From contig JACOWZ010000003.1 of assembly GCA_016176525.1 (NCBI GenBank), positions 256,001 through 320,000 of the forward strand: a stretch of 64,000 bases of DNA, given 5' to 3'. The position numbers and the translations under genes were made by a program. This stretch comes from Candidatus Colwellbacteria bacterium (GTDB lineage: Bacteria > Patescibacteriota > Minisyncoccia > UBA6257 > Colwellbacteraceae). Shown one piece after another: positions 1,935 through 10,114 of this stretch (within the stretch, counting starts at the first letter, position 1; each line of letters opens with the position of its first letter). The notes under the pieces are model-generated. The model ran no database searches, was not told where the DNA came from, and worked only from the letters and a program-made list of their open reading frames with translations.

Positions 1935-2260
1935 GGGAGTGCAAGTATCGACGAATGTACATTTCTATAGTTTGCAAGCCGAGAAGATTCTCTCGTAAAA
2001 CAGATCAAAAATATAACTGCTAAACAAAATTTAGCTTTCGCTCCTAGAGTTCCAGCTTTTGCTGTAGCCTAGCCGAGCGCATCAGCCCGTGAGTCTCCAT
2101 AGCGGACAACTGGTGTAATAATTGGAGAGTAGTTTTTCGGAAATGTTCTGCGGCCGATAAACGAAACAAAGTGGAACAAAACTGTTACATTAGTAACTAA
2201 GCTTGTAGATAATTATGGACTTTACTTTCGGACGGGGGTTCAATCCTCCCACTTCCACCA
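1935..2260 (+). ncRNA. ssrA: transfer-messenger RNA (tmRNA)
   Basis: The 3' end ggacgggggttcaatcctcccacttccACCA is the canonical tmRNA T-arm plus acceptor plus CCA. The 5' gggagtg (1935-1941) pairs with cacttcc (2250-2256) as a 7-bp acceptor stem. A 5' gUAUCGACGaaug matches the conserved tmRNA motif. An internal tag-like ORF ...AKQNLAFAPRVPAFAVA ends in TAG. The gene sits immediately after smpB. The 5' boundary is approximate. Confidence 0.75.
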
Positions 2261-2263
2261 ATA

Positions 2264-2295
2264 AAATATGCCACCCGGTTGGCATATTTTCTGTT
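2264..2295 (+). terminator. rho-independent terminator of ssrA
   Basis: A perfect 10-bp inverted repeat aaatatgcca-cccggt-tggcatattt is followed by a T-rich tract. Confidence 0.6.
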
Positions 2296-2309
2296 ATACT
2301 TATCTTGTT

Positions 2310-2897
2310 ATGCCAAAAAGGGTTAAAAGTAATAATAAAAAATACAACAAAGTTGCGGATTTTCTTTTTGAGGTTGGCATGCTCTCTAAAACCCCGCGCA
2401 GTTTTAGCCCGTTTTTGGGCGGCGGCGAGCAGTCTGTAGCAGACCATCTTAATCGCACGTCTTACACTGCAATGTGCCTCGGCTACATGACTCACGGGGT
2501 AGACATTGATAAAATTGTAAAAATGGCACTTTTTCACGACTTAACAGAAGCGCGTATTTCGGACCTAAACCACGTTCACCAAAGATATGCTGCAAGAGAC
2601 GAGCATAAAGCTCTAACAGATTTAGCTCGCGAGATTCCTTTCGGCGAAGAGATTAAAAAAATAATTCTTGAATATGAAAAACGCCAAACAAAAGAGGCGA
2701 AAATTGTAAAAGATGCAGACATCTTGGATTTTTTAATCACCCTAAAAGAAGTTGGAGACACAGGCAATATTCGCGCCAAAAACTGGGCACCTAAACTGCA
2801 AAGCAGGCTAAAAACAAAAGAGGCAAAGATGCTTGCAAAAGCGGTTTTGCGTTCCAAGTCTGACAGTTGGTGGTTTACTGCATCTAATAAGAAATAA
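2310..2897 (+). CDS. HD-domain phosphohydrolase (YfbR-like 5'-deoxynucleotidase family)
   Basis: H..D-type motifs (DHLNRTSY..., ALFHDLTEARISDL, KDADILDFL). The start is moved to ATG 2310 because the upstream 14 codons overlap the tmRNA terminator hairpin. Confidence 0.6.
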   Translation: MPKRVKSNNKKYNKVADFLFEVGMLSKTPRSFSPFLGGGEQSVADHLNRTSYTAMCLGYMTHGVDIDKIVKMALFHDLTEARISDLNHVHQRYAARDEHKALTDLAREIPFGEEIKKIILEYEKRQTKEAKIVKDADILDFLITLKEVGDTGNIRAKNWAPKLQSRLKTKEAKMLAKAVLRSKSDSWWFTASNKK

Positions 2898-4591
2898 TGC
2901 TTTCTGCAAAAATAAAAGAGTTTTTGTCCGAAAGTTTCCCGGGGCTTGATGTGCAGGTGTCACAGCCAGACAACTACTTGCATGGGCACTATGCTACAAA
3001 TCTTGCTTTTGCGCTTGGCGCAAAAGAGAAAATTTCTCCAATGGAGGCGGCGAAGAAGATAAAAGAAACCGCCGTAGAGGTTGCGCCTTGGGGTTTGTTG
3101 GAAAAAGTTGAAGTTGCGCCTCCCGGCTTTGTAAATTTTTTTGTTAGCGTATCTGCAATTCAAAACGAGCTTTCAATCATATCAAGAAATAAAAACTGGG
3201 GTGCGCCTCAGCCGGATGTGTTAAAATCCCGCAAAGGCAAAACTGCAATAATTGAATATTCTTCGCCTAATATTGCAAAGCCGATGCATATTGGCCATCT
3301 GCGTTCAACTATTATCGGCGATGCGCTTGCCAACATCTACCTATTCTCGGGCTACAAAGTTATTAGATGGAATTATATTGGTGATTGGGGCACCCAGTTT
3401 GGCAAGCTTATTGCCGCTTACAAAATGTGGGGTGATAAAAAGGCGGTTTTAAAAGACCCTATAAAAGAGCTTGTAAAACTTTATGTCCGTTTCCACCAAG
3501 AGTTAGAGAAAAACCCCGAGCTTGAAGAAAAAGGCCGCGAAGAGTTTAAAAAATTAGAAGATGGAGAGAAAGTTAATAAAAAACTTTGGGCTTGGTTTCG
3601 CAAAGAATCGCTAAAAGAGTTCGAAAAAATCTATCGCATACTCGGCATTAAGTTTAATGTCTCTAAAGGCGAATCTTATTACGAAGGCAAGCTCGGCAAT
3701 TTAGTAGAAGAGCTCTTAAAAAGAGGCATTGCAAGGCCAAGTATGGGCGGGGTGATAGTTGAAACCGGCCAAAAAGTGCCGGCACTTATTCAAAAATCAG
3801 ACGGTGCGAGCTTGTATCTTACAAGAGAACTTGCGAACTTACAGTACCGCGCCAAAAAATATAAACCCGCAAGGATTTTATATGTTGTTGGCAGCGAACA
3901 GTCGTTTCATTTTGAACAGCTTTTTATAATCGGCAAAATTTTGGGGGTTAACGGAACGAGACTTTTCCATATTGGCCATGGTCTGGTGTTGGGTGAGGAC
4001 AATAAAAAACTTTCAACGCGCGAAGGTAAAACAGTAGAGCTTAACGATGTTTTAATGGAGAGTATCTCCCGCGCTGGAGAGACCCTAAACACTAGGCAAA
4101 TGGGTTTAAAACCAAAAGAGAAAGTAAAAATAGCACAAGCTGTAGGGGTGGGCGCAATAAAATATAACGATTTGAGTATGGGGCGAGAGAGCGATATAAA
4201 ATTTGATTGGGACAAGATGCTGGATTTTCAAGGTAACTCCGGCCCATATATACAATATACTTACGCGCGGTTAAAGAGTATTTTGCGCAAAGCGCCCGCA
4301 CGTAAGTTTGATTCTAAGGCGTTATCCAATGAGGCAGACTTAGAGCTGGTTTTGATTTTGGATTCATATCCCATGGCAGTTGAGGAGGCGTTTACTGCAA
4401 ACTCACCGCAAAAAATTGCGAGCTATATCTACGAGCTTTCAAAAGCTGTAAACGGCTTTTATCAGTCAAACCCGGTTTTGCAGTCTGAACGCGGGGTTCG
4501 CGAGGCTCGCTTAGCGCTGATTTCCGCATGCGCAAGCACCCTAAAGAGGGGTATGGAGCTCTTAGGCATTACCCCTTTAGAGAGAATGTAG
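2897..4591 (+). CDS. argS: arginine--tRNA ligase
   Basis: HIGH motif in PNIAKPMHIGHLRSTIIGDALANIY, length 564 aa, class I ArgRS architecture, and a TAATG overlap with the upstream gene. Confidence 0.9.
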   Translation: MLSAKIKEFLSESFPGLDVQVSQPDNYLHGHYATNLAFALGAKEKISPMEAAKKIKETAVEVAPWGLLEKVEVAPPGFVNFFVSVSAIQNELSIISRNKNWGAPQPDVLKSRKGKTAIIEYSSPNIAKPMHIGHLRSTIIGDALANIYLFSGYKVIRWNYIGDWGTQFGKLIAAYKMWGDKKAVLKDPIKELVKLYVRFHQELEKNPELEEKGREEFKKLEDGEKVNKKLWAWFRKESLKEFEKIYRILGIKFNVSKGESYYEGKLGNLVEELLKRGIARPSMGGVIVETGQKVPALIQKSDGASLYLTRELANLQYRAKKYKPARILYVVGSEQSFHFEQLFIIGKILGVNGTRLFHIGHGLVLGEDNKKLSTREGKTVELNDVLMESISRAGETLNTRQMGLKPKEKVKIAQAVGVGAIKYNDLSMGRESDIKFDWDKMLDFQGNSGPYIQYTYARLKSILRKAPARKFDSKALSNEADLELVLILDSYPMAVEEAFTANSPQKIASYIYELSKAVNGFYQSNPVLQSERGVREARLALISACASTLKRGMELLGITPLERM

Positions 4592-4650: not shown

Positions 4651-7600
4651 ATGCTTAAAATCATTAAAGAATTCAAACTTCCAGAACTTGAGGAAAAGAT
4701 TTTGGAATTTTGGAAGAAAAACACTATTTTCCAGAGGTCTTTGTCTGAAAAAGCCGGCAAAGAGCCATTTACTTTTTACGAGGGTCCGCCTACCGCAAAT
4801 GGGCGGCCGGGGTTGCACCATATCTTGGCGCGCAGTTTTAAAGATGTTATATGCCGCTATAAAACAATGCGCGGATATTTTGTGCCCCGCCGCGCCGGGT
4901 GGGATACACATGGTCTTCCTGTAGAAATTGAGGTTGAAAAGTCGCTTGGCTTAAAGTCGAAGAAAGATATAGAAAAATATGGCATAGCGGAGTTCAATAA
5001 GAAATGTAAAGAGTCTGTTTGGGAATACAAAGACGAGTGGGACAAGATGACGGATCGCATGGGCTATTGGCTGGATTTAGAAAATCCCTATATAACCTAC
5101 ACACCTGGCTATATAGAAGCGTTATGGGGAATTTTTGCAAAAGCTTGGAATAAGAAACTGCTCTACAAAGGGCACAAGGTTGTGCCATGGTGCACGCGCT
5201 GCGGCACAGGCCTTTCGTCGCACGAAGTCTCCCAAGGCTACAGCGAGTCTACAGACACTGCGGTTTATGTAAAATTTAAATTAAAAAAGGGCCAAAAAAT
5301 AGGTGCGAAGTTTAAAACAGACGACTCCACTTATATTCTTTCTTGGACTACAACTCCGTGGACATTGCCTGGCAACGTTGCCCTTGCTGTTGGGCCACAA
5401 ATAAAATACGCCATATTTAAGAAGAAATCCGGATCTGTAGAAGAACGCTATATTGTTGCGAAGAAAGTTGTGGGTTCGGATCCGCTAAATAATTTAGGAG
5501 ATTTAGAGTTGGAAATAAGCGGTAAAAGCTTAGTTGGGCTAAAATACGAGCCGCTTTGGAATATAAGCCCGCTTCAAACCCCGGCTGCGTATAAAGTTTA
5601 CCCGGCAGATTTTGTAACAACCGAAGACGGCACGGGTGTTGTGCATACCGCCGTAATGTACGGTGAAGATGATTATAAATTAGGAGAGAAATTAAACTTG
5701 CCAATGCACCACACTGTTGATGAATCCGGCGAGTTTACTGGAGATGTTGCCGGGTTTAAGGGTATGTATGTTAAGTCTAATGAAGCTGAGAAAAAACTTC
5801 TGGAATATCTAAATAAAAAAGATTTATTATTCCAAAAAGAATCATACACGCATGAATATCCGTTTTGCTGGCGTTGTAAAACCCCTCTTTTATATTATGC
5901 AAGGCCCAGCTGGTTTATATCAATGTCTAAGTTGCAAGAAAAGCTAGTTAGAGAAAACCGCAAAATCAATTGGATTCCGGAGCATGTAAAAACGGGTCGG
6001 TTTGGTGAGTGGCTGAAGGATGTTAGGGATTGGGCGGTTTCGCGCGAGAGATATTGGGCAACGCCATTGCCAGTTTGGCAGTGCAGTAGAGGCCATACAA
6101 AAGTTGTAGGGTCGCTAGATGAATTACAAAAGTTAGTTGTGCCAAATAATAATTACTTTTTATTGCGGCACGGCGAAGCAGAGCACAATTTAGATGGCAT
6201 TATTGCCTCCGGTCCCGAGTCTAAAAACCGAGCGCCGGAGTTGACTGAAAATGGCAAGAACCAGATAAAAGTTGCAGGGCAAGAGCTTGTAAAACACAAA
6301 ATTGATTTAATATTCACTTCTCCTTATAAGCGGTGCTTGCAAACTGCAAAGATTGTCGCCAAACCCAAAAAAATCCAAATTACTAAAGATGCGCGCCTTA
6401 GCGAATTGAACGCTGGGATATTCAATTGGAAGACAATAAGCGAGTACAAAAATTTTTTTGATAACCCGATGGATAGGTTTAAACGTGCTCCATCTGGCGG
6501 AGAGACTTTGCGCGAACTACGCCGGCGCATGTTTGAATTCTTAGAAGAAATTGACAGCAAATATTCCGGCAAAAATATACTTATTGTAAGCCATGGCGAC
6601 CCGCTGTGGATGCTGGAACTCGCCGTAAAAAGAACCGATGAAGAAGATGCAAAGAAAGACTTGCAATATTTGGAGCCCGGCAAATGGAAGGAGCTTGAGT
6701 TTAAGAATATTTCTTACAACTCGGAGGGCGAGCTGGATTTGCACAGGCCTTATATAGATAAGGTTGTAATAAAGTGCGGGACATGCAAAAAACCTGCCCG
6801 CGCAGGCGGGGACATGCGCCGCGTGCCGGAGGTAGTGGACGCCTGGTTTGACTCCGGCGCAATGCCTTTTGCTGCAGGCGGGTTGGAATACCCTGCGGAC
6901 TATATTTGCGAGGGTATGGACCAAACGCGCGGGTGGTTTTACACCCTACTTGCAGTTGCTTCAGTTTTAGGCAAGGAGCGGCCTTATAAAAACGTTATTA
7001 CGCTTGGGCTTATTCACGATAAGCTTGGGCAAAAGATGTCTAAGTCGCGCGGCAACACAGTTGATCCGTGGGAGATGATGGGCAAATACGGCGCAGACGT
7101 TGTGCGCTGGTATTTCTACACCGTAAATCCGCCAGGTGAGGCTAAAAATTTTGACGAAAACGACCTAGCAAAAGTCTTTAGGAGATTTTTCGGCACGCTC
7201 TATAACTCTTATGTTTTCTACGACACCTTTAGAGAGAAGTTGGAGGCGGGCCCGCTTCATGTAAAAAATATTTTAGATAGGTGGATTGTCGCGCGCCTTA
7301 ATGAAACGACAAAAATTGTTACGGAAAATATGGATTCTTACAATATAATAACCGCAACGCGCGAGATAGAAAATTTAGTTGACGATTTATCGCGGTGGTA
7401 TATAAGGCGCAGCCGCGGGAGGAGCGATATGGTAAAAACTTTGGGTTATATGTTGCGCGAAATATCAAAACTTACGGCACCGTTCACGCCATTTTTCTCC
7501 GAAGCTCTCTACAAATCGCTTGAAATGAGCAAAAACCTCTCTGTGCATTTAGAAGATTACCCGGAGATGCAGAAAGATTATCTGGAAAAAGATTTAATAA

Positions 7601-8091
7601 CTGCAATGCGCGAGGTAAGGCGAATCTCAACCCTAGCTCTTTCAAAAAGGGCCGAGGTTGGCATAAAAGTGCGCCAGCCGCTTTCAACATTAACCATTAA
7701 AGAAACTAAAGTGCCACTTGCAGGCGATCTGTTAGACCTTATTAAAGAAGAAGTTAATGTAAAAGAGGTTATTATAAGCCCTAAGCTAAAAGATGAGCTT
7801 GAGTTAGATGTTGTGATCTCGCCCGCCCTAAAAGAAGAAGGTTTGGCGCGCGAATCTATTAGAATTATTCAAACTTTAAGGCAAAAACTTCAGATGAAGC
7901 CTGTAGAAAAAATAGAAGTAAATATCCATGCGCCACAGGGTATAACTGAAGCCATAAAAAAACACGAACGAATTTTGCGCCAGACTGTTGGCGCCTCGGC
8001 TGTAAATTATCGCCAATCCGAAAAGTTTGACGCAGAAGAAACCGCAGAGCTTGACTCACAAGAGGCACAAATAAGCATAAGAAAACTATAA
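4651..8091 (+). CDS. ileS: isoleucine--tRNA ligase carrying an inserted histidine-phosphatase (phosphoglycerate-mutase-superfamily) domain
   Basis: IleRS signatures: PTANGRPGLHHILARS (HIGH region), editing-domain motifs, WAVSRERYWATPLPVW and KMSKSRGN. The ~200 aa at about 6136..6735 carry LRHGEAEHN, TSPYKRCLQTA and VSHGDPL histidine-phosphatase motifs. Confidence 0.9.
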   Translation: MLKIIKEFKLPELEEKILEFWKKNTIFQRSLSEKAGKEPFTFYEGPPTANGRPGLHHILARSFKDVICRYKTMRGYFVPRRAGWDTHGLPVEIEVEKSLGLKSKKDIEKYGIAEFNKKCKESVWEYKDEWDKMTDRMGYWLDLENPYITYTPGYIEALWGIFAKAWNKKLLYKGHKVVPWCTRCGTGLSSHEVSQGYSESTDTAVYVKFKLKKGQKIGAKFKTDDSTYILSWTTTPWTLPGNVALAVGPQIKYAIFKKKSGSVEERYIVAKKVVGSDPLNNLGDLELEISGKSLVGLKYEPLWNISPLQTPAAYKVYPADFVTTEDGTGVVHTAVMYGEDDYKLGEKLNLPMHHTVDESGEFTGDVAGFKGMYVKSNEAEKKLLEYLNKKDLLFQKESYTHEYPFCWRCKTPLLYYARPSWFISMSKLQEKLVRENRKINWIPEHVKTGRFGEWLKDVRDWAVSRERYWATPLPVWQCSRGHTKVVGSLDELQKLVVPNNNYFLLRHGEAEHNLDGIIASGPESKNRAPELTENGKNQIKVAGQELVKHKIDLIFTSPYKRCLQTAKIVAKPKKIQITKDARLSELNAGIFNWKTISEYKNFFDNPMDRFKRAPSGGETLRELRRRMFEFLEEIDSKYSGKNILIVSHGDPLWMLELAVKRTDEEDAKKDLQYLEPGKWKELEFKNISYNSEGELDLHRPYIDKVVIKCGTCKKPARAGGDMRRVPEVVDAWFDSGAMPFAAGGLEYPADYICEGMDQTRGWFYTLLAVASVLGKERPYKNVITLGLIHDKLGQKMSKSRGNTVDPWEMMGKYGADVVRWYFYTVNPPGEAKNFDENDLAKVFRRFFGTLYNSYVFYDTFREKLEAGPLHVKNILDRWIVARLNETTKIVTENMDSYNIITATREIENLVDDLSRWYIRRSRGRSDMVKTLGYMLREISKLTAPFTPFFSEALYKSLEMSKNLSVHLEDYPEMQKDYLEKDLITAMREVRRISTLALSKRAEVGIKVRQPLSTLTIKETKVPLAGDLLDLIKEEVNVKEVIISPKLKDELELDVVISPALKEEGLARESIRIIQTLRQKLQMKPVEKIEVNIHAPQGITEAIKKHERILRQTVGASAVNYRQSEKFDAEETAELDSQEAQISIRKL

Positions 8092-8094
8092 ACA

Positions 8095-9669
8095 ATGGCT
8101 AAGAAAACCGTTGTAATGGTTATATTGGACGGTTGGGGCATAGGCAAGCATGATGCCTCAAACCCAATATACGAGTTAAATCCCAAGAATATTGATTTTA
8201 TAAAACACAATTATTCTATTGGTTCTTTGCAGGCTTCTGGTATTGCAGTCGGCTTACCGTGGGAAGAAGAAGGCAACTCGGAGGTTGGACACCTTACACT
8301 TGGTTCCGGCCGCGTTATATACCAGCACTACCCAAGAATAAGCATATCTCTGCGCGACGAAAGCTTTTATTCTAATAAAGTTTTACTAGGGGCTTTTAAC
8401 CATGCAAGGGAGCATGGCGGCGCAGTTAACTTGATAGGCATTTTAACCGGTGGCAATGTGCACGCGGCACTCGAACACTTAGAAGGCCTTTTAAAACTAG
8501 CGGAGCGGCAAAAGGCAGGTGCAGTAAATTTGCATTTATTTACAGACGGCAAAGACTCGCCGCCAAAATCCGTTTTGAGGCTGTTGCAAAAACTAGATAT
8601 TGAGTCATATAAGGCAAGGGGACTGAATGTTAGGATTGCGAGCATTGCAGGCAGGTACTACGGGATGGACCGCGACTTACATTGGAAAAGAACAGAGAGA
8701 GCATACGCGGCCATTACCGGCGCGTCATCAACGAATAACGAATCCAATACGAATATACGAATGGGTGCAGCCGAATATATTGAGTTGCAATATGCGCAGG
8801 GCTTAACAGATGAGTTTATCGAACCCAAAATTATAGACCCATCAGGCGCGCTAAAGAGCGGAGATGCAACGATATTTTTTAACTTTAGAGAAGATAGCAT
8901 CAGGCAGCTCACGGAGATGTTTATAGAAAACATCAATTCAGGCAATTTAAAAGACCTGAATGTCGCAACTTTTACAGAATACAACAAAAAATTTCCGTTT
9001 CCGGTTGCATTTCCGCCTGAGGATGTTGTAAATTCGCTCGGCAAGGTCTTGTCGGATGAGGGTTTTACGCAATTAAGAATCGCCGAGACTAATAAGTACG
9101 CACACGTTACTTATTTTTTTAACGGTTATTTAGAAAAGCCTTTTAAAAACGAATACAGGGTTTTAGTGCCGTCTAAAAATGTTCCGCGTTACGATGAAGT
9201 GCCGGAGATGAGCGCGCGCGATATTACTGCTCGCGCCTTAGAAGCAATAAAAGAAAGAGCCTACGATTTTATCCTTATAAACTATGCAAACGCAGACATA
9301 GTGGCTCACACCGGAAATTTTGACGCAACCGTAAAGGCGGTTTCGGTTGTAGACGAGCAAATTGGTATTTTAATGAAAGAGGTTTTGCGCACAAAGGCAG
9401 TGATGCTGATTACCTCCGACCACGGTAATGCCGAAAAAGTGTTGGACCTTGCAACCGGTTTACCGGAGACCCAGCACGACCCTTCGCCTGTGCCGGTATA
9501 TGTTATAGGCGAGGAGTATAAAAAACCGAAAGGTGAGGCCGAAATAAGCGAGTCAGAAAAATTAAGCACAGGGCTTATATCGGATGTCGCCCCTACAGTG
9601 CTAGACATTATGGGCGTTCAACAACCGCCCGAGATGACCGGCGTTAGTCTGCTACAATCATTAATATGA
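8095..9669 (+). CDS. gpmI: 2,3-bisphosphoglycerate-independent phosphoglycerate mutase
   Basis: N-terminus VVMVILDGWGIG, 524 aa, metalloenzyme-family motifs throughout. Confidence 0.85.
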   Translation: MAKKTVVMVILDGWGIGKHDASNPIYELNPKNIDFIKHNYSIGSLQASGIAVGLPWEEEGNSEVGHLTLGSGRVIYQHYPRISISLRDESFYSNKVLLGAFNHAREHGGAVNLIGILTGGNVHAALEHLEGLLKLAERQKAGAVNLHLFTDGKDSPPKSVLRLLQKLDIESYKARGLNVRIASIAGRYYGMDRDLHWKRTERAYAAITGASSTNNESNTNIRMGAAEYIELQYAQGLTDEFIEPKIIDPSGALKSGDATIFFNFREDSIRQLTEMFIENINSGNLKDLNVATFTEYNKKFPFPVAFPPEDVVNSLGKVLSDEGFTQLRIAETNKYAHVTYFFNGYLEKPFKNEYRVLVPSKNVPRYDEVPEMSARDITARALEAIKERAYDFILINYANADIVAHTGNFDATVKAVSVVDEQIGILMKEVLRTKAVMLITSDHGNAEKVLDLATGLPETQHDPSPVPVYVIGEEYKKPKGEAEISESEKLSTGLISDVAPTVLDIMGVQQPPEMTGVSLLQSLI

Positions 9670-9769: not shown

Positions 9770-10114
9770 ATGTGGCGCTACATAATAATTCCAATTTCTG
9801 TAAACGTTTTTGGCATTTGGGCGGCGGGGAAATATGTTGAGGGTTTTATGGTTCCAGAGAGTATATGGGCACTTATCGTAGCAGGGGTGGTCTTATCTCT
9901 CATTAATCTGGCGGTTCGGCCGTTTTTAAGGCTCATTTTTAGCCCGCTGATACTTCTAACAATGGGTTTGGCGCTTATTGCAGTAAATATGCTTGTTTTA
10001 TATCTCCTTGACTACCTCTTAACTTCCATTACAATAGACGGGCTACTTCCACTACTCTTAGGTACGTTAATTATCTCGGCGGTGAATGTAGTTTTAAGAT
10101 TTATATTGTTATAA
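9770..10114 (+). CDS. small 4-TM membrane protein (DUF360 / holin-superfamily-IV-like)
   Basis: 114 aa with four hydrophobic segments and a pattern typical of the YvlD/DUF360 family. Confidence 0.5.
   Translation: MWRYIIIPISVNVFGIWAAGKYVEGFMVPESIWALIVAGVVLSLINLAVRPFLRLIFSPLILLTMGLALIAVNMLVLYLLDYLLTSITIDGLLPLLLGTLIISAVNVVLRFILL

What the first reader, a model, noticed from the sequence alone, without database searches (positions are those of the whole stretch)
6136..6735. Histidine-phosphatase (PGM-superfamily) domain inserted inside the isoleucyl-tRNA synthetase catalytic core
The ileS product aligns to type-2 IleRS across its whole length, except for about 200 extra residues between ...WQCSRGHTKVVGSLDELQKL and DLHRPYIDKVVIKCGTCKK.... 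In Thermus-type IleRS only about 12 residues separate these two segments, which form the two halves of the zinc knuckle. The insert carries the three hallmark motifs of branch-1 histidine phosphatases: LRHGEAEHN (catalytic His in RHG), TSPYKRCLQTA and VSHGDPL (second His). A dPGM-fold domain, apparently catalytically competent, is therefore grafted into a surface loop of an essential aaRS. I know of no described IleRS with such a module. It could act on a phosphorylated nucleotide/tRNA end or on a metabolite. The cofactor-independent PGM gene gpmI lies immediately downstream, which may be coincidence.
Basis: partly seen in the sequence, partly recalled or inferred. Interest (0 to 1): 0.75.

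Follow-up and report, generated by a model that had tools for sequence, protein, structure and literature searches.

The report
Phosphatase module inside isoleucyl-tRNA synthetase
The isoleucyl-tRNA synthetase of this tiny-genome (CPR/Patescibacteria) bacterium carries a complete, apparently active PhoE-type histidine phosphatase in a surface loop, and relatives keep the same phosphatase inside or right beside tRNA-charging enzymes, which points to an undescribed helper activity in translation.

Summary
ORF 4651-8091 is an IleRS. Residues 496-695 (nt 6136-6735) are a His_Phos_1 domain (Pfam E=7e-35) that replaces about 10 residues of Thermus IleRS at the tip of the CP3 zinc knuckle.

It is not a misassembly. 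All 120 closest homologues carry it, as do 70 of 79 informative GTDB species loci, all apparently Parcubacteria/Paceibacteria. The catalytic Arg-His-Arg-Glu/Asp-His set is invariant, and dN/dS matches the synthetase core.

The domain is a small PhoE/PspA/CobC-like phosphatase, not a glycolytic dPGM. The gpmI adjacency is not conserved.

New findings:
- The nearest free-standing relatives (about 190 aa) lie in an argS-phosphatase-ileS cluster with an insert-less ileS in 9 of 9 cases examined (directly adjacent in 8). This is a split/fused pair.
- Peregrinibacteria IleRS carries 2-3 copies.
- Other IleRS carry copies in other loops.
- One ValRS carries four copies.
- ArgRS and TsaC carry C-terminal copies.
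- Near-identical IleRS pairs (89%) differ only by the module.

My reading is a dispensable, active phosphatase dedicated to adenylate-forming tRNA enzymes. I guess it clears a phosphorylated by-product (PPi or AMP). The substrate is inferred, not shown. I found no paper describing it.

The parts
4651..8091 (+). ileS, 1146-aa type-2 (Thermus-like) isoleucyl-tRNA synthetase carrying the insert
   Evidence: ORF. TIGR00392 834 bits above the 621 cut-off. tRNA-synt_1, Anticodon_1 and DUF5915. Best PDB hit 1ILE, E=2e-225. AF2 full-length model pLDDT 86.7, pTM 0.75.
4810..4821 (+). Class I signature motif in the non-canonical form G54-L-H-H57 (GXHH instead of HXGH)
   Evidence: Position. H56 and H57 invariant and G54 at least 90% conserved in homologues. 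Aligned to Thermus HVGH. G/AXHH described for IleRS2 in PMC10485003.
5344..5652 (+). CP1 editing-domain hallmark motifs (WTTTPWTLPGN 232-242, GTGVVHTA 327-334), intact
   Evidence: Sequence positions. Columns invariant. Matches to the isolated Thermus editing domain 1WK8/1WNY.
6076..6096 (+). First half of the CP3 zinc knuckle (W-Q-C478-S-R-G-H482). The second Cys of the Thermus CxxC is missing in this clade.
   Evidence: C478 is 99% conserved. Many relatives have WECxxCK.
6136..6735 (+). The insert: residues 496-695, an autonomous histidine-phosphatase module
   Evidence: Insert length is 196-217 aa in 120 homologues. Insert-only AF2 model pLDDT 91.2, pTM 0.89. In the full-length model the 10-residue blocks spanning the insert average 86-96, with one dip to 67 at 661-670.
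6157..6657 (+). His_Phos_1 (PF00300) core, residues 503-669
   Evidence: Pfam E=7.1e-35. Profile against PDB: PhoE 1EBB/1H2E 2.4e-27, PspA 4IJ5, CobC 6NRU. Foldseek: 1H2E TM 0.75, E=4.6e-15.
6166..6171 (+). Arg506-His507 of the RHG motif (His507 is the predicted phospho-acceptor)
   Evidence: Invariant in 120 of 120 homologues. Aligns to the RHG of PhoE.
6331..6333 (+). Arg561, second phosphate-binding Arg (S-x3-R-x3-T-A motif)
   Evidence: Invariant 120 of 120.
6403..6405 (+). Glu585, predicted proton donor
   Evidence: Glu in 113 and Asp in 7 of 120 homologues. Aligns to the Glu of PhoE 'LREIHLG'.
6592..6594 (+). His648, second catalytic His (S-H-G/E motif)
   Evidence: Invariant 120 of 120.
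6658..6735 (+). C-terminal extension and return linker of the module (residues 670-695), which brings the chain back to the IleRS DLHRPYID motif
   Evidence: Present in inserts, and in part in free-standing relatives ('...GELRKLN'). One short strand and a pLDDT dip to 67 at 661-670.
6736..6786 (+). IleRS resumes: DLHRPYID, then the second half of the zinc knuckle C709-G-T-C712
   Evidence: D696, H698, P700, D703, C709 and C712 are 98-100% conserved.
7033..7047 (+). KMSKS loop (residues 795-799)
   Evidence: Invariant columns.
2897..4591 (+). argS, the conserved upstream neighbour. In split-form relatives the free-standing phosphatase gene sits downstream of argS and, in most, between argS and ileS.
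   Evidence: ORF. argS-ileS synteny in many loci. An argS-phosphatase-ileS cluster in 7 cases (one interrupted by three extra genes, one with ileS convergent).
8095..9669 (+). gpmI (cofactor-independent PGM). Listed only because the finding mentions it. It is not part of the feature.
   Evidence: Metalloenzyme and iPGM_N. Immediate adjacency is not conserved.

Best explanation
SHOWN. Residues 496-695 are a self-contained PhoE-type histidine phosphatase (branch 1) grafted into the tip of the CP3 zinc-knuckle hairpin of an otherwise complete type-2 IleRS. The GXHH and KMSKS motifs, the CP1 editing motifs, the anticodon-binding domain and the type-2 C-terminus are all present. The module is ancient and class-wide in Parcubacteria/Paceibacteria. 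It is under the same purifying selection as the synthetase and keeps every catalytic residue.

SHOWN. It belongs to a phosphatase subfamily that is almost always tied to adenylate-forming enzymes of tRNA metabolism. The ties take these forms:
- a separate roughly 190-aa gene in an argS-phosphatase-ileS cluster with an insert-less ileS;
- a CP3 insert, as here;
- 2-3 tandem copies in Peregrinibacteria IleRS;
- inserts in other IleRS loops;
- four copies in one ValRS;
- a C-terminal fusion to ArgRS and to the TC-AMP synthase TsaC.

SHOWN. It can be lost cleanly without other change to IleRS.

INFERRED. The module is an active phosphohydrolase working in cis as an accessory to the synthetase, not part of the aminoacylation chemistry itself. 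The insertion site, the copy number and the host enzyme all vary. So what matters is probably physical and stoichiometric coupling to an ATP -> adenylate + PPi enzyme, not a precise geometry.

INFERRED, my preferred mechanism. The module locally hydrolyses a phosphorylated by-product of adenylate chemistry, PPi or AMP. This would relieve product inhibition or reversal in organisms with minimal metabolism.

Rough probabilities: active phosphatase functionally dedicated to these enzymes, about 0.6; by-product (PPi/AMP) clearance specifically, about 0.3.
For: Identity and fold:
- Pfam E=7e-35.
- PDB profile hits PhoE 2.4e-27, PspA and CobC.
- AF2 pLDDT 91 and Foldseek TM 0.75 to PhoE 1H2E.

Catalytic competence:
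- R506, H507, R561, E618, R626 and H648 are invariant, and E585 is E or D, in 120 homologues of 50-60% identity.
- dN/dS of the insert is 0.03-0.17 against 0.035-0.18 for the core.

Breadth:
- All 120 best homologues carry PF00300.
- 70 of 79 informative GTDB species loci carry it.
- 507 clusters at 50% identity score E<=1e-30.

Split/fused link:
- 9 of 9 free-standing close relatives lie in a gene cluster with an insert-less ileS. Seven are directly upstream and co-directional, often 1-10 nt apart or overlapping. One is convergent. One is separated by three small genes.
- In an NJ tree the split-form IleRS branch basally.

Other hosts, sites and copy numbers:
- Pfam and NCBIfam on P0121 (ValRS, 4 copies), P0133, P0166 and P0195 (IleRS, other loops), P0182 (2 copies), P0188 (ArgRS-C-terminal fusion) and P0189 (TsaC-C-terminal fusion).
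- All 120 Peregrinibacteria homologues carry 2-3 copies.
- P0270 is seen on 8 contigs.

Dispensability:
- L047 (with the module) and L076 (without) are 89.2% identical over 1000 core residues, and L046 and L075 are 72.5% identical. Eight complete insert-less IleRS are scattered through the tree.

By-product idea: PPi is the one product that IleRS, ValRS, ArgRS and TsaC all release themselves. This rests on established enzymology and is my inference.
Against: - No enzymatic or structural data exist, and the substrate is a guess.
- Branch-1 histidine phosphatases are phosphomonoesterases. As far as I know, PPi (an anhydride) is not a documented substrate of PhoE-like enzymes. Hydrolysing AMP would waste a purine nucleotide in organisms that cannot make purines.
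- The ArgRS fusion could arise trivially from stop-codon loss in the argS-phosphatase operon. The TsaC fusion rests on one representative on one 3.7-kb contig.
- I could not test whether genomes with the module lack a soluble pyrophosphatase or nucleotidase. A PPase-signature scan of the DNA I hold found nothing and is uninformative.
- Repeated clean loss shows the activity is not essential.
- The prediction tools return no coordinates, so the distance and orientation between the phosphatase pocket, the synthetic site and the tRNA path are unknown.
- The NJ trees have no support values.
Confidence: 0.55

Rival explanations
1. tRNA-end or protein repair phosphatase. The module removes a blocking phosphate, for example a 2'/3'-phosphate or pyrophosphate on the A76 end of tRNA, or an inhibitory phosphoryl group placed on the synthetase by a kinase toxin. 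It would act as a built-in counter-measure in a conflict with hosts, phages or toxins.
For: The module shows the accessory, patchy, multi-copy, quickly gained and lost behaviour typical of conflict systems. Nearly all partners are tRNA-binding enzymes. A toxin-antitoxin pair sits inside one phosphatase-ileS operon (L095). From my own knowledge, not tested here: the histidine-phosphatase superfamily includes protein phosphatases (SixA, PGAM5, Sts-1). Also from my own knowledge: HipA-type kinases inactivate aaRS, and toxSAS enzymes pyrophosphorylate tRNA CCA ends.
Against: Insertion sites are spread over CP3, the loop after WFDSG and the anticodon-binding region, not focused on the CCA-binding site. 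TsaC does not handle the tRNA 3' end. Four copies in one ValRS are hard to rationalise for a single tRNA end. No nucleic-acid-binding features were detected, and the insert pI of about 9 equals that of the rest of the protein.
Confidence: 0.15
2. Hitch-hiking housekeeping phosphatase. An ordinary PhoE-like metabolic phosphatase sat by chance in the argS-ileS operon of an ancestor. It was later captured into tolerant surface loops or termini. The linkage gives only co-expression, and the substrate has nothing to do with translation.
For: CP3 is a known hot spot of length and fold variation among IleRS (PMC7191050). The module is dispensable. The ArgRS fusion is what stop-codon loss in the operon would give. 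Streamlined genomes favour fusions.
Against: Internal insertion of a 200-aa domain, repeated at several different loops, in two deeply divergent IleRS subtypes and in ValRS, with up to 4 copies, is not what neutral operon neighbourhood predicts. 9 of 9 free-standing relatives have kept the ileS linkage across lineages whose IleRS cores are only 42-51% identical to the window's. An independent fusion to TsaC exists. More distant His_Phos_1 paralogues co-exist in some genomes that have the insert (L023, L025, L041).
Confidence: 0.2
3. Non-hydrolytic sensor or switch. The domain binds a phosphorylated metabolite, or becomes stably phosphorylated on His507, and allosterically tunes IleRS to the energy or glycolytic state.
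For: From my own knowledge: dPGM-type enzymes carry a long-lived phospho-His. The full catalytic and phosphate-binding set is conserved. The domain sits on CP3, which links CP2 to the second half of the Rossmann fold (PMC7191050).
Against: Conservation of the proton-donor Glu/Asp and of every turnover residue fits catalysis better than binding alone. Free-standing and C-terminally fused forms cannot transmit allostery through CP3. Variable insertion sites argue against one allosteric path.
Confidence: 0.07
4. Glycolytic cofactor-dependent phosphoglycerate mutase moonlighting inside IleRS. This is the reading suggested by the PGM-superfamily label, the neighbouring gpmI gene and JGI's product names.
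For: Superfamily membership. JGI names such as 'isoleucyl-tRNA synthetase/bisphosphoglycerate-dependent phosphoglycerate mutase'.
Against: Every dPGM equivalog model is far below its cut-off: dPGM_arch 90 against 225, pgm_1 31.8 against 81.7, GpmB 58.5 against 261. The nearest structures are the phosphatases PhoE, PspA, HFP, GpgP and CobC, and true dPGMs align with rmsd 5-8 A. The residues after the catalytic Glu are L-N-A-G, not the R-H-Y-G of dPGM (sequence, plus my own knowledge of dPGM). The genome has an iPGM. gpmI adjacency is not conserved.
Confidence: 0.02
5. Assembly chimera or frameshift artefact joining two genes.
For: None beyond the a priori possibility in a MAG.
Against: One uninterrupted frame with no GC break. 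The identical protein appears in independent NCBI and Logan assemblies. The same architecture occurs in hundreds of independent assemblies and in contigs up to 0.78 Mb.
Confidence: 0.01

Closest known systems
PhoE (YhfR) broad-specificity phosphatase of Geobacillus stearothermophilus (PDB 1EBB/1H2E), with the related PspA phosphoserine phosphatase (4IJ5) and CobC alpha-ribazole phosphatase (6NRU/6E4B)
   Same: Same fold and size class (about 200 aa). Same catalytic R-H...R...E...H set and 'LREIxxGxxxG' / 'GES' motifs. Profile E=2.4e-27. TM 0.75 and 30% identity.
   Different: Those are free-standing soluble enzymes with no link to aaRS. The module here has a C-terminal return extension and is embedded in, or encoded beside, a synthetase. 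It reaches none of the NCBIfam equivalog cut-offs: CobC 84.7 against 162.9, PspA 81 against 350.
Type-2 IleRS (IleRS2) of Thermus thermophilus (1ILE) and Priestia megaterium (8C8U-8C9D), including the G/AXHH signature-motif variant
   Same: Collinear over the whole length apart from the insert, with E about 1e-220. Same CP1, CP2, CP3, anticodon-binding and type-2 C-terminal organisation. The GLHH motif is the G/AXHH variant described in PMC10485003.
   Different: About 200 extra residues at the CP3 tip where Thermus has about 10. This clade has lost one Cys of the CP3 zinc site.
IleRS with an N-acetyltransferase domain (NCBIfam NF040702 'ileS_w_GNAT')
   Same: A precedent for an IleRS that carries an extra catalytic domain. 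It appeared among the NCBIfam hits.
   Different: A different accessory fold (GNAT) and a different IleRS lineage. The window protein scores 330 against a cut-off of 1999. I know nothing about it beyond the model's name.
Bifunctional RNase H / acid phosphatase (NCBIfam NF005567, Rv2228c type)
   Same: A PhoE/CobC-like histidine phosphatase fused to a nucleic-acid enzyme. The insert matches the phosphatase half at 82.5 bits.
   Different: That is a terminal fusion, not an internal insertion. The partner is RNase H, not an aaRS. The score is below the cut-off of 326.
Idiosyncratic CP3 and other connective-peptide insertions of class Ia synthetases (e.g. the differing CP3 folds of Candida, Thermus and S. 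aureus IleRS)
   Same: The same insertion hot spot. CP3 differs in topology and zinc content among solved IleRS (PMC7191050).
   Different: Known CP3 variants are small, non-catalytic helical or beta elements. Here a whole enzyme domain is inserted.

Membership tests
Isoleucyl-tRNA synthetase, type 2 (TIGR00392 / IleRS2) | Whole-protein HMM score above the curated cut-off | tested here: met
   834.4 bits against 621.4, in two stretches around the insert.
Isoleucyl-tRNA synthetase, type 2 (TIGR00392 / IleRS2) | Class I signature motifs HXGH (or the IleRS2 variant G/AXHH) and KMSKS | tested here: met
   GLHH at 54-57 and KMSKS at 795-799, conserved in homologues. The variant is documented in PMC10485003.
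Isoleucyl-tRNA synthetase, type 2 (TIGR00392 / IleRS2) | CP1 editing domain with the T-rich and GTGxVH motifs | tested here: met
   WTTTPWTLPGN 232-242 and GTGVVHTA 327-334. Matches to isolated editing-domain structures 1WK8/1WNY.
Isoleucyl-tRNA synthetase, type 2 (TIGR00392 / IleRS2) | Type-2 C-terminal organisation (Anticodon_1 plus DUF5915, no type-1 zinc-binding domain) | tested here: met
   PF08264 at 876-1012 and PF19302 at 1051-1145.
Isoleucyl-tRNA synthetase, type 2 (TIGR00392 / IleRS2) | Ile-tRNA(Ile) synthesis activity | not testable with these tools
   Needs an aminoacylation assay.
Histidine phosphatase superfamily, branch 1 (PF00300) | Pfam score above the gathering threshold | tested here: met
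   120.9 bits against 21.7, E=7.1e-35, residues 503-669.
Histidine phosphatase superfamily, branch 1 (PF00300) | Catalytic core: RHG Arg and His, second Arg, acidic proton donor, second His | tested here: met
   R506, H507, R561, E585 and H648 are present. They are invariant, or E/D, in 120 homologues, and they align to PhoE.
Histidine phosphatase superfamily, branch 1 (PF00300) | Alpha/beta fold of dPGM/PhoE type | tested here: met
   AF2 pLDDT 91.2. Foldseek TM 0.72-0.78 to PhoE, PspA, GpgP and CobC, probability 1.00.
Histidine phosphatase superfamily, branch 1 (PF00300) | Phosphatase activity through a phospho-His intermediate | not testable with these tools
   Needs enzyme assays and an H507A control.
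Cofactor-dependent phosphoglycerate mutase (dPGM: GpmA/GpmB/dPGM_arch equivalogs) | Score above the equivalog cut-off | tested here: not met
   dPGM_arch 90.2 against 225; GpmB 58.5 against 261; pgm_1 31.8 against 81.7; PRK14115 25.8 against 305.
Characterised small phosphatases CobC (TIGR03162), PspA (NF045917), SixA (TIGR00249) | Score above the equivalog cut-off | tested here: not met
   CobC 84.7 against 162.9; PspA 81.4 against 350; SixA 37.8 against 74.5. Only superfamily-level assignment is justified.
Intein or other self-splicing / mobile protein insertion | Hint/intein splicing domain or homing-endonuclease domain in or around the insert | tested here: not met
   Pfam at E<=0.01 finds only synthetase domains and His_Phos_1. 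The insert is retained and under purifying selection.

The most novel reading that the evidence does not exclude
CPR bacteria have made a phosphatase step a built-in part of tRNA charging. A dedicated PhoE-like enzyme, fused into or encoded beside IleRS, ValRS, ArgRS and TsaC, would carry out a reaction that other organisms either leave to soluble housekeeping enzymes or do not need. It could locally destroy PPi or AMP to drive adenylate chemistry. It could instead remove a blocking phosphate from the tRNA acceptor end or from the synthetase. Either way this would be a new accessory activity of aminoacyl-tRNA synthetases and a new functional class within the histidine-phosphatase superfamily.
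Probability: 0.35. Interest if true: 0.85.

Novelty: new variant of a known kind. Interest (0 to 1): 0.75.

Why it matters
Aminoacyl-tRNA synthetases are among the best-studied enzymes, and new catalytic add-ons in bacteria are rare. Here a second, apparently active enzyme is embedded in the catalytic body of an essential synthetase across a whole class of the Candidate Phyla Radiation.

Comparative genomics gives an unusually clean functional link:
- split and fused forms of the same pair;
- repeated independent insertions;
- several copies per protein;
- four different adenylate-forming host enzymes.

This gives a directly testable question, namely what phosphate ester has to be removed next to tRNA charging in ultra-small cells.

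It also has a practical side. Annotation pipelines name these proteins 'class I tRNA ligase family protein' or 'IleRS/phosphoglycerate mutase'. The insert could therefore be miscounted as a glycolytic PGM in metabolic reconstructions of CPR genomes, and IleRS could be missed as a marker.

Tried and rejected
- gpmI link. I tested it by tblastn in 80 related loci. gpmI is directly downstream only in the window. Elsewhere it is absent or lies 4-8 kb away on the other strand. Rejected as coincidence.
- HD_3 gene upstream of argS (2268-2897). An HD_3 gene also sits in the L095 operon, but tblastn found no homologue of the window's HD_3 protein in any of 95 loci. Not a conserved partner.
- The search for related loci with the insert alignment failed because no stretch was conserved enough. 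I re-ran it with the full protein.
- pI and charge of the insert, as a hint of RNA binding: the median pI of 8.95 equals the core's 9.06. Uninformative.
- A family-I pyrophosphatase signature scan of the window and all loci found nothing. This is uninformative because only about 2% of each genome is held.
- Geometry of the phosphatase pocket relative to the synthetic site, editing site or tRNA path: structure prediction returns no coordinates, so it could not be assessed.
- Nine literature searches and four paper look-ups found no description of the fusion. The library lacks most subscription journals, so absence is not proof.
- Taxon names on several MAG records (Saccharibacteria, Gammaproteobacteria, Verrucomicrobiia, KSB1) conflict with the placement of their IleRS among Parcubacteria. 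I did not rely on them.
- The NJ trees carry no bootstrap values. I use them only for the coarse pattern.


Full report
1. THE OBSERVATION

The window holds one long ORF at 4651-8091 (+), 1146 aa. It is an isoleucyl-tRNA synthetase: TIGR00392 scores 834 bits against a cut-off of 621. Its best solved relatives are Thermus thermophilus IleRS 1ILE (E=2e-225) and Priestia megaterium IleRS2.

Pfam splits the class I catalytic domain into two stretches and places His_Phos_1 (PF00300) between them, at residues 503-669 with E=7.1e-35. 1ILE aligns residues 2-477 to query 2-493 and 488-821 to query 695-1005. About 10 Thermus residues are replaced by about 200.

The flanks are the two halves of the CP3 zinc knuckle: W-Q-C478-S-R-G-H on one side and C709-G-T-C712 on the other. 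One structural paper defines CP3 as the subdomain that links CP2 to the second half of the Rossmann fold. It notes that CP3 differs in topology and zinc content among solved IleRS (PMC7191050).

There is no compositional break across the insert. The identical protein is on record from NCBI (a Candidatus Colwellbacteria MAG, contig 645 kb) and from an independent Logan assembly.

2. NOT AN ARTEFACT, AND NOT UNIQUE

All 120 best homologues (50-60% identical) carry PF00300. They are named Colwell-, Lipton-, Jorgensen- and Harrisonbacteria, Paceibacterota, Minisyncoccia and Parcubacteria.

Among 80 loci from GTDB species representatives, 70 have the module in frame inside ileS, 9 lack it and 1 is cut off before the site.

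A profile of the insert finds 507 clusters (50% identity level) at E<=1e-30 among 1.84 billion representative proteins.

3. WHAT THE MODULE IS

The insert profile matches the broad-specificity phosphatase PhoE/YhfR best (1EBB/1H2E, E=2.4e-27). The phosphoserine phosphatase PspA and the alpha-ribazole phosphatase CobC come next.

The insert alone folds with pLDDT 91.2 and pTM 0.89. Its nearest structures are PhoE (TM 0.75), PspA, the riboflavin-pathway phosphatase HFP, GpgP and CobC. True dPGMs align worse, with rmsd of 5-8 A. All dPGM equivalog models, and also those for CobC, PspA and SixA, stay far below their cut-offs. Only a superfamily-level assignment as a PhoE-like phosphatase is justified. 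It is not a mutase.

In the full-length model (pLDDT 86.7, pTM 0.75) the 10-residue blocks spanning the insert average 86-96, apart from one dip to 67 at 661-670.

Across 120 homologues the insert is 196-217 aa long. R506, H507, S557, R561, E618, R626 and H648 are invariant, and E585 is Glu in 113 and Asp in 7.

For nine closer pairs of species, dN/dS of the insert (0.03-0.17) is like that of the synthetase core (0.035-0.18). dS is high or saturated in several pairs.

The host enzyme looks complete. It has GLHH and KMSKS motifs, the CP1 editing motifs, the anticodon-binding domain and the type-2 C-terminus.

4. SURROUNDINGS

Upstream is argS (2897-4591). Downstream is gpmI (8095-9669, iPGM).

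The gpmI adjacency is not conserved. In 9 of 80 loci a gpmI lies 4-8 kb downstream on the other strand, and in the rest none is in range. argS-ileS synteny is common.

5. THE KEY COMPARATIVE RESULT

The profile search also returned many free-standing proteins of about 185-200 aa. They score as high as the inserts do (170-213 bits) and are 39-45% identical to the window's insert. I looked up nine of them. All nine lie in a gene cluster with an insert-less ileS:

- Directly upstream and co-directional in seven: P0148, P0154, P0174, P0156, P0146, P0490 and P0465. Five of these (P0148, P0154, P0174, P0490, P0465) show the full argS | phosphatase | ileS order. P0156 shows the end of argS before the phosphatase. 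The gaps are mostly 1-24 nt, and two pairs overlap.
- Convergent and 3 nt away in P0172.
- Separated from ileS by a toxin-antitoxin pair and an HD_3 gene in P0443.

This is the same argS-ileS neighbourhood as in the window, so the phosphatase and IleRS form a split/fused pair. The free-standing family is large, with at least 120 clusters at 90% identity, including Staskawiczbacteria.

In an NJ tree rooted on Peregrinibacteria IleRS, four of the five split-form IleRS branch below the fused clade. This suggests, without statistical support, that the adjacent-gene state is older.

6. MORE HOSTS, SITES AND COPIES

Peregrinibacteria IleRS, including closed Candidatus Peribacter genomes, belongs to the other type-2 subtype ('PPFATG..HYGH'). 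It carries two tandem copies in the CP3 region in all but three of the 120 listed homologues, and three copies in those three. One such protein is seen on 8 contigs from different samples.

Other IleRS have copies after the WFESGSMPYA motif and at the start of the anticodon-binding region (P0133, P0166, P0195).

P0121 is a ValRS (NF004349 411 bits against ileS 199) with four copies. P0188 is an ArgRS with the phosphatase fused at its C-terminus, in a locus where ileS is absent. P0189 is a threonylcarbamoyl-AMP synthase (TsaC; TIGR00057 above its cut-off) with the phosphatase at its C-terminus. Every copy I inspected keeps the RHG motif.

7. DISPENSABILITY

The eight complete insert-less IleRS in the species set are scattered among insert-bearing ones.

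L047 (with the module) and L076 (without, zero residues between the junctions) are 89.2% identical over 1000 core residues. L046 and L075 are 72.5% identical. No free-standing copy lies within the flanks of the insert-less loci.

The module can therefore be removed, or added, cleanly and recently. Aminoacylation as such does not need it.

8. MECHANISM

Shown: an autonomous, selected, catalytically equipped PhoE-like domain that is persistently linked to IleRS, ValRS, ArgRS and TsaC.

Inferred: the site, copy number and host all vary. Exact geometry relative to the synthetic site is therefore unlikely to matter. Coupling to an enzyme that turns ATP into an adenylate plus PPi is the common denominator.

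My preferred reading is local hydrolysis of a phosphorylated by-product, PPi or AMP. I put this at about 0.3, within about 0.6 for 'an active phosphatase functionally dedicated to these enzymes'.

Weak points: PPi is not a classical substrate of this fold, AMP hydrolysis would be wasteful, and the TsaC case rests on a single contig.

Rivals and my rough probabilities:
- a repair phosphatase for phosphorylated tRNA ends or phosphorylated synthetase (0.15);
- a hitch-hiking housekeeping phosphatase (0.2);
- a non-hydrolytic phospho-ligand switch (0.07);
- a glycolytic dPGM (0.02);
- an assembly artefact (0.01).

9. COMPARISON AND NOVELTY

Both parts are members of known families. The host is IleRS2, here with the published G/AXHH signature variant (PMC10485003). 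The insert is a branch-1 histidine phosphatase.

Extra domains on aaRS are a known theme. NCBIfam even has an 'IleS with GNAT' model.

The new elements are a phosphatase as the added enzyme, its internal position in CP3, and the family-wide split/fused/multi-copy pattern. I found no description in nine full-text searches and four paper look-ups, including two recent IleRS evolution papers and CPR metabolism papers.

Automated pipelines have noticed the architecture, for example JGI's 'isoleucyl-tRNA synthetase/bisphosphoglycerate-dependent phosphoglycerate mutase'. The sequences are therefore public but uninterpreted.

Verdict: real, widespread in CPR, a new variant of a known kind, interest 0.75.

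Noticed in passing
window 4810-4821 (IleRS residues 54-57): The class I 'HIGH' motif is G-L-H-H, with the first and third positions swapped. H56 and H57 are invariant and G54 is at least 90% conserved in the CPR homologues. This is the G/AXHH variant of IleRS2, which PMC10485003 links to mupirocin hyper-resistance.
   Followed up: partly
window 6076-6096 and 6775-6786: In this clade the first half of the CP3 zinc knuckle reads C478-x3-H482 and lacks the second Cys. Many insert-bearing relatives (L028, L042, L044-L047) keep CxxC...CxxC. Whether the site still binds zinc (Cys3His?) is open.
   Followed up: partly
window 6787-6804 (residues 713-718, KKPARA): A six-residue insertion just after the second CxxC. 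It is absent from 80-94% of homologues, depending on the column, and is the only segment of the full-length model with pLDDT below 50 (715-718).
   Followed up: no
L047 versus L076; L046 versus L075: Pairs of IleRS from different species are 89.2% and 72.5% identical in the core. They differ by the presence or exact absence of the whole phosphatase module, which means very recent clean loss or gain.
   Followed up: partly
P0182/P0270 and 120 homologues (L082 10001-14407): Peregrinibacteria/Peribacteraceae IleRS (1430-1650 aa) carry two tandem His_Phos_1 domains in the CP3 region (three in P0284, P0336 and P0349). The host is a different IleRS2 subtype from the window's.
   Followed up: partly
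P0121 (1161 aa, contig-truncated): A ValRS with four His_Phos_1 copies (residues 427-584, 695-882, 884-1043, 1072-1157), each with an RHG motif.
   Followed up: partly
P0133, P0166, P0195: IleRS with phosphatase copies in other surface loops: after the WFESGSMPYA motif and at the start of the anticodon-binding domain. This indicates several independent insertion events.
   Followed up: partly
P0188 (L097 6001-8070) and P0189 (L096 977-2140): The same phosphatase subfamily is fused to the C-terminus of ArgRS, in a locus where ileS is missing (smpB | argS::phosphatase | recO). It is also fused to the C-terminus of the t6A enzyme TsaC (L-threonylcarbamoyladenylate synthase).
   Followed up: partly
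protein names: NCBI names many of these proteins only 'class I tRNA ligase family protein' or 'hypothetical protein'. JGI names some 'IleRS/bisphosphoglycerate-dependent phosphoglycerate mutase', '/PhoE' or '/SixA'. The insert could be counted as a glycolytic PGM in CPR metabolic reconstructions.
   Followed up: no
L095 4652-5819: A RHH/ParE-YafQ toxin-antitoxin pair and an HD_3 phosphohydrolase gene are wedged between the free-standing phosphatase gene and ileS.
   Followed up: no
window 2268-2897: An HD_3/YfbR-like (5'-deoxynucleotidase family) gene ends exactly where argS starts. The window thus reads tmRNA - HD_3 - argS - ileS - gpmI. No homologue of this HD_3 protein was found in the 95 related loci.
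   Followed up: yes
window 1935-2260; L084, L086, L090, L094, L095, L097: tmRNA lies just upstream in the window. In relatives smpB, infC-rpmI-rplT, argS, (phosphatase), ileS and recO form a recurrent translation-related neighbourhood.
   Followed up: no
L025 816-1427, L041 3015-3782, L023 900-1559: More distant free-standing His_Phos_1 genes (60-72 bits against the insert profile) lie 1.3-4.2 kb from an ileS that itself carries the insert. The insert is therefore not the only histidine phosphatase of those genomes.
   Followed up: partly
L089 2682-5609: The ileS convergent to the free-standing phosphatase gene is called as two ORFs (412 and 554 aa), although tblastn aligns across the boundary. 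This may be a frameshift, a pseudogene or a sequencing error.
   Followed up: no
record titles of L001-L080: Many MAGs are labelled 'uncultured Candidatus Saccharibacteria', 'Gammaproteobacteria', 'Verrucomicrobiia' or 'KSB1', yet their IleRS nest among Parcubacteria sequences. These are probably mislabelled or mis-binned.
   Followed up: no
window 9770-10114 and L082 14541-14924: A PF04020 (Phage_holin_4_2-type small membrane protein) gene follows ileS or gpmI both in the window and in the distant Peregrinibacteria locus.
   Followed up: no
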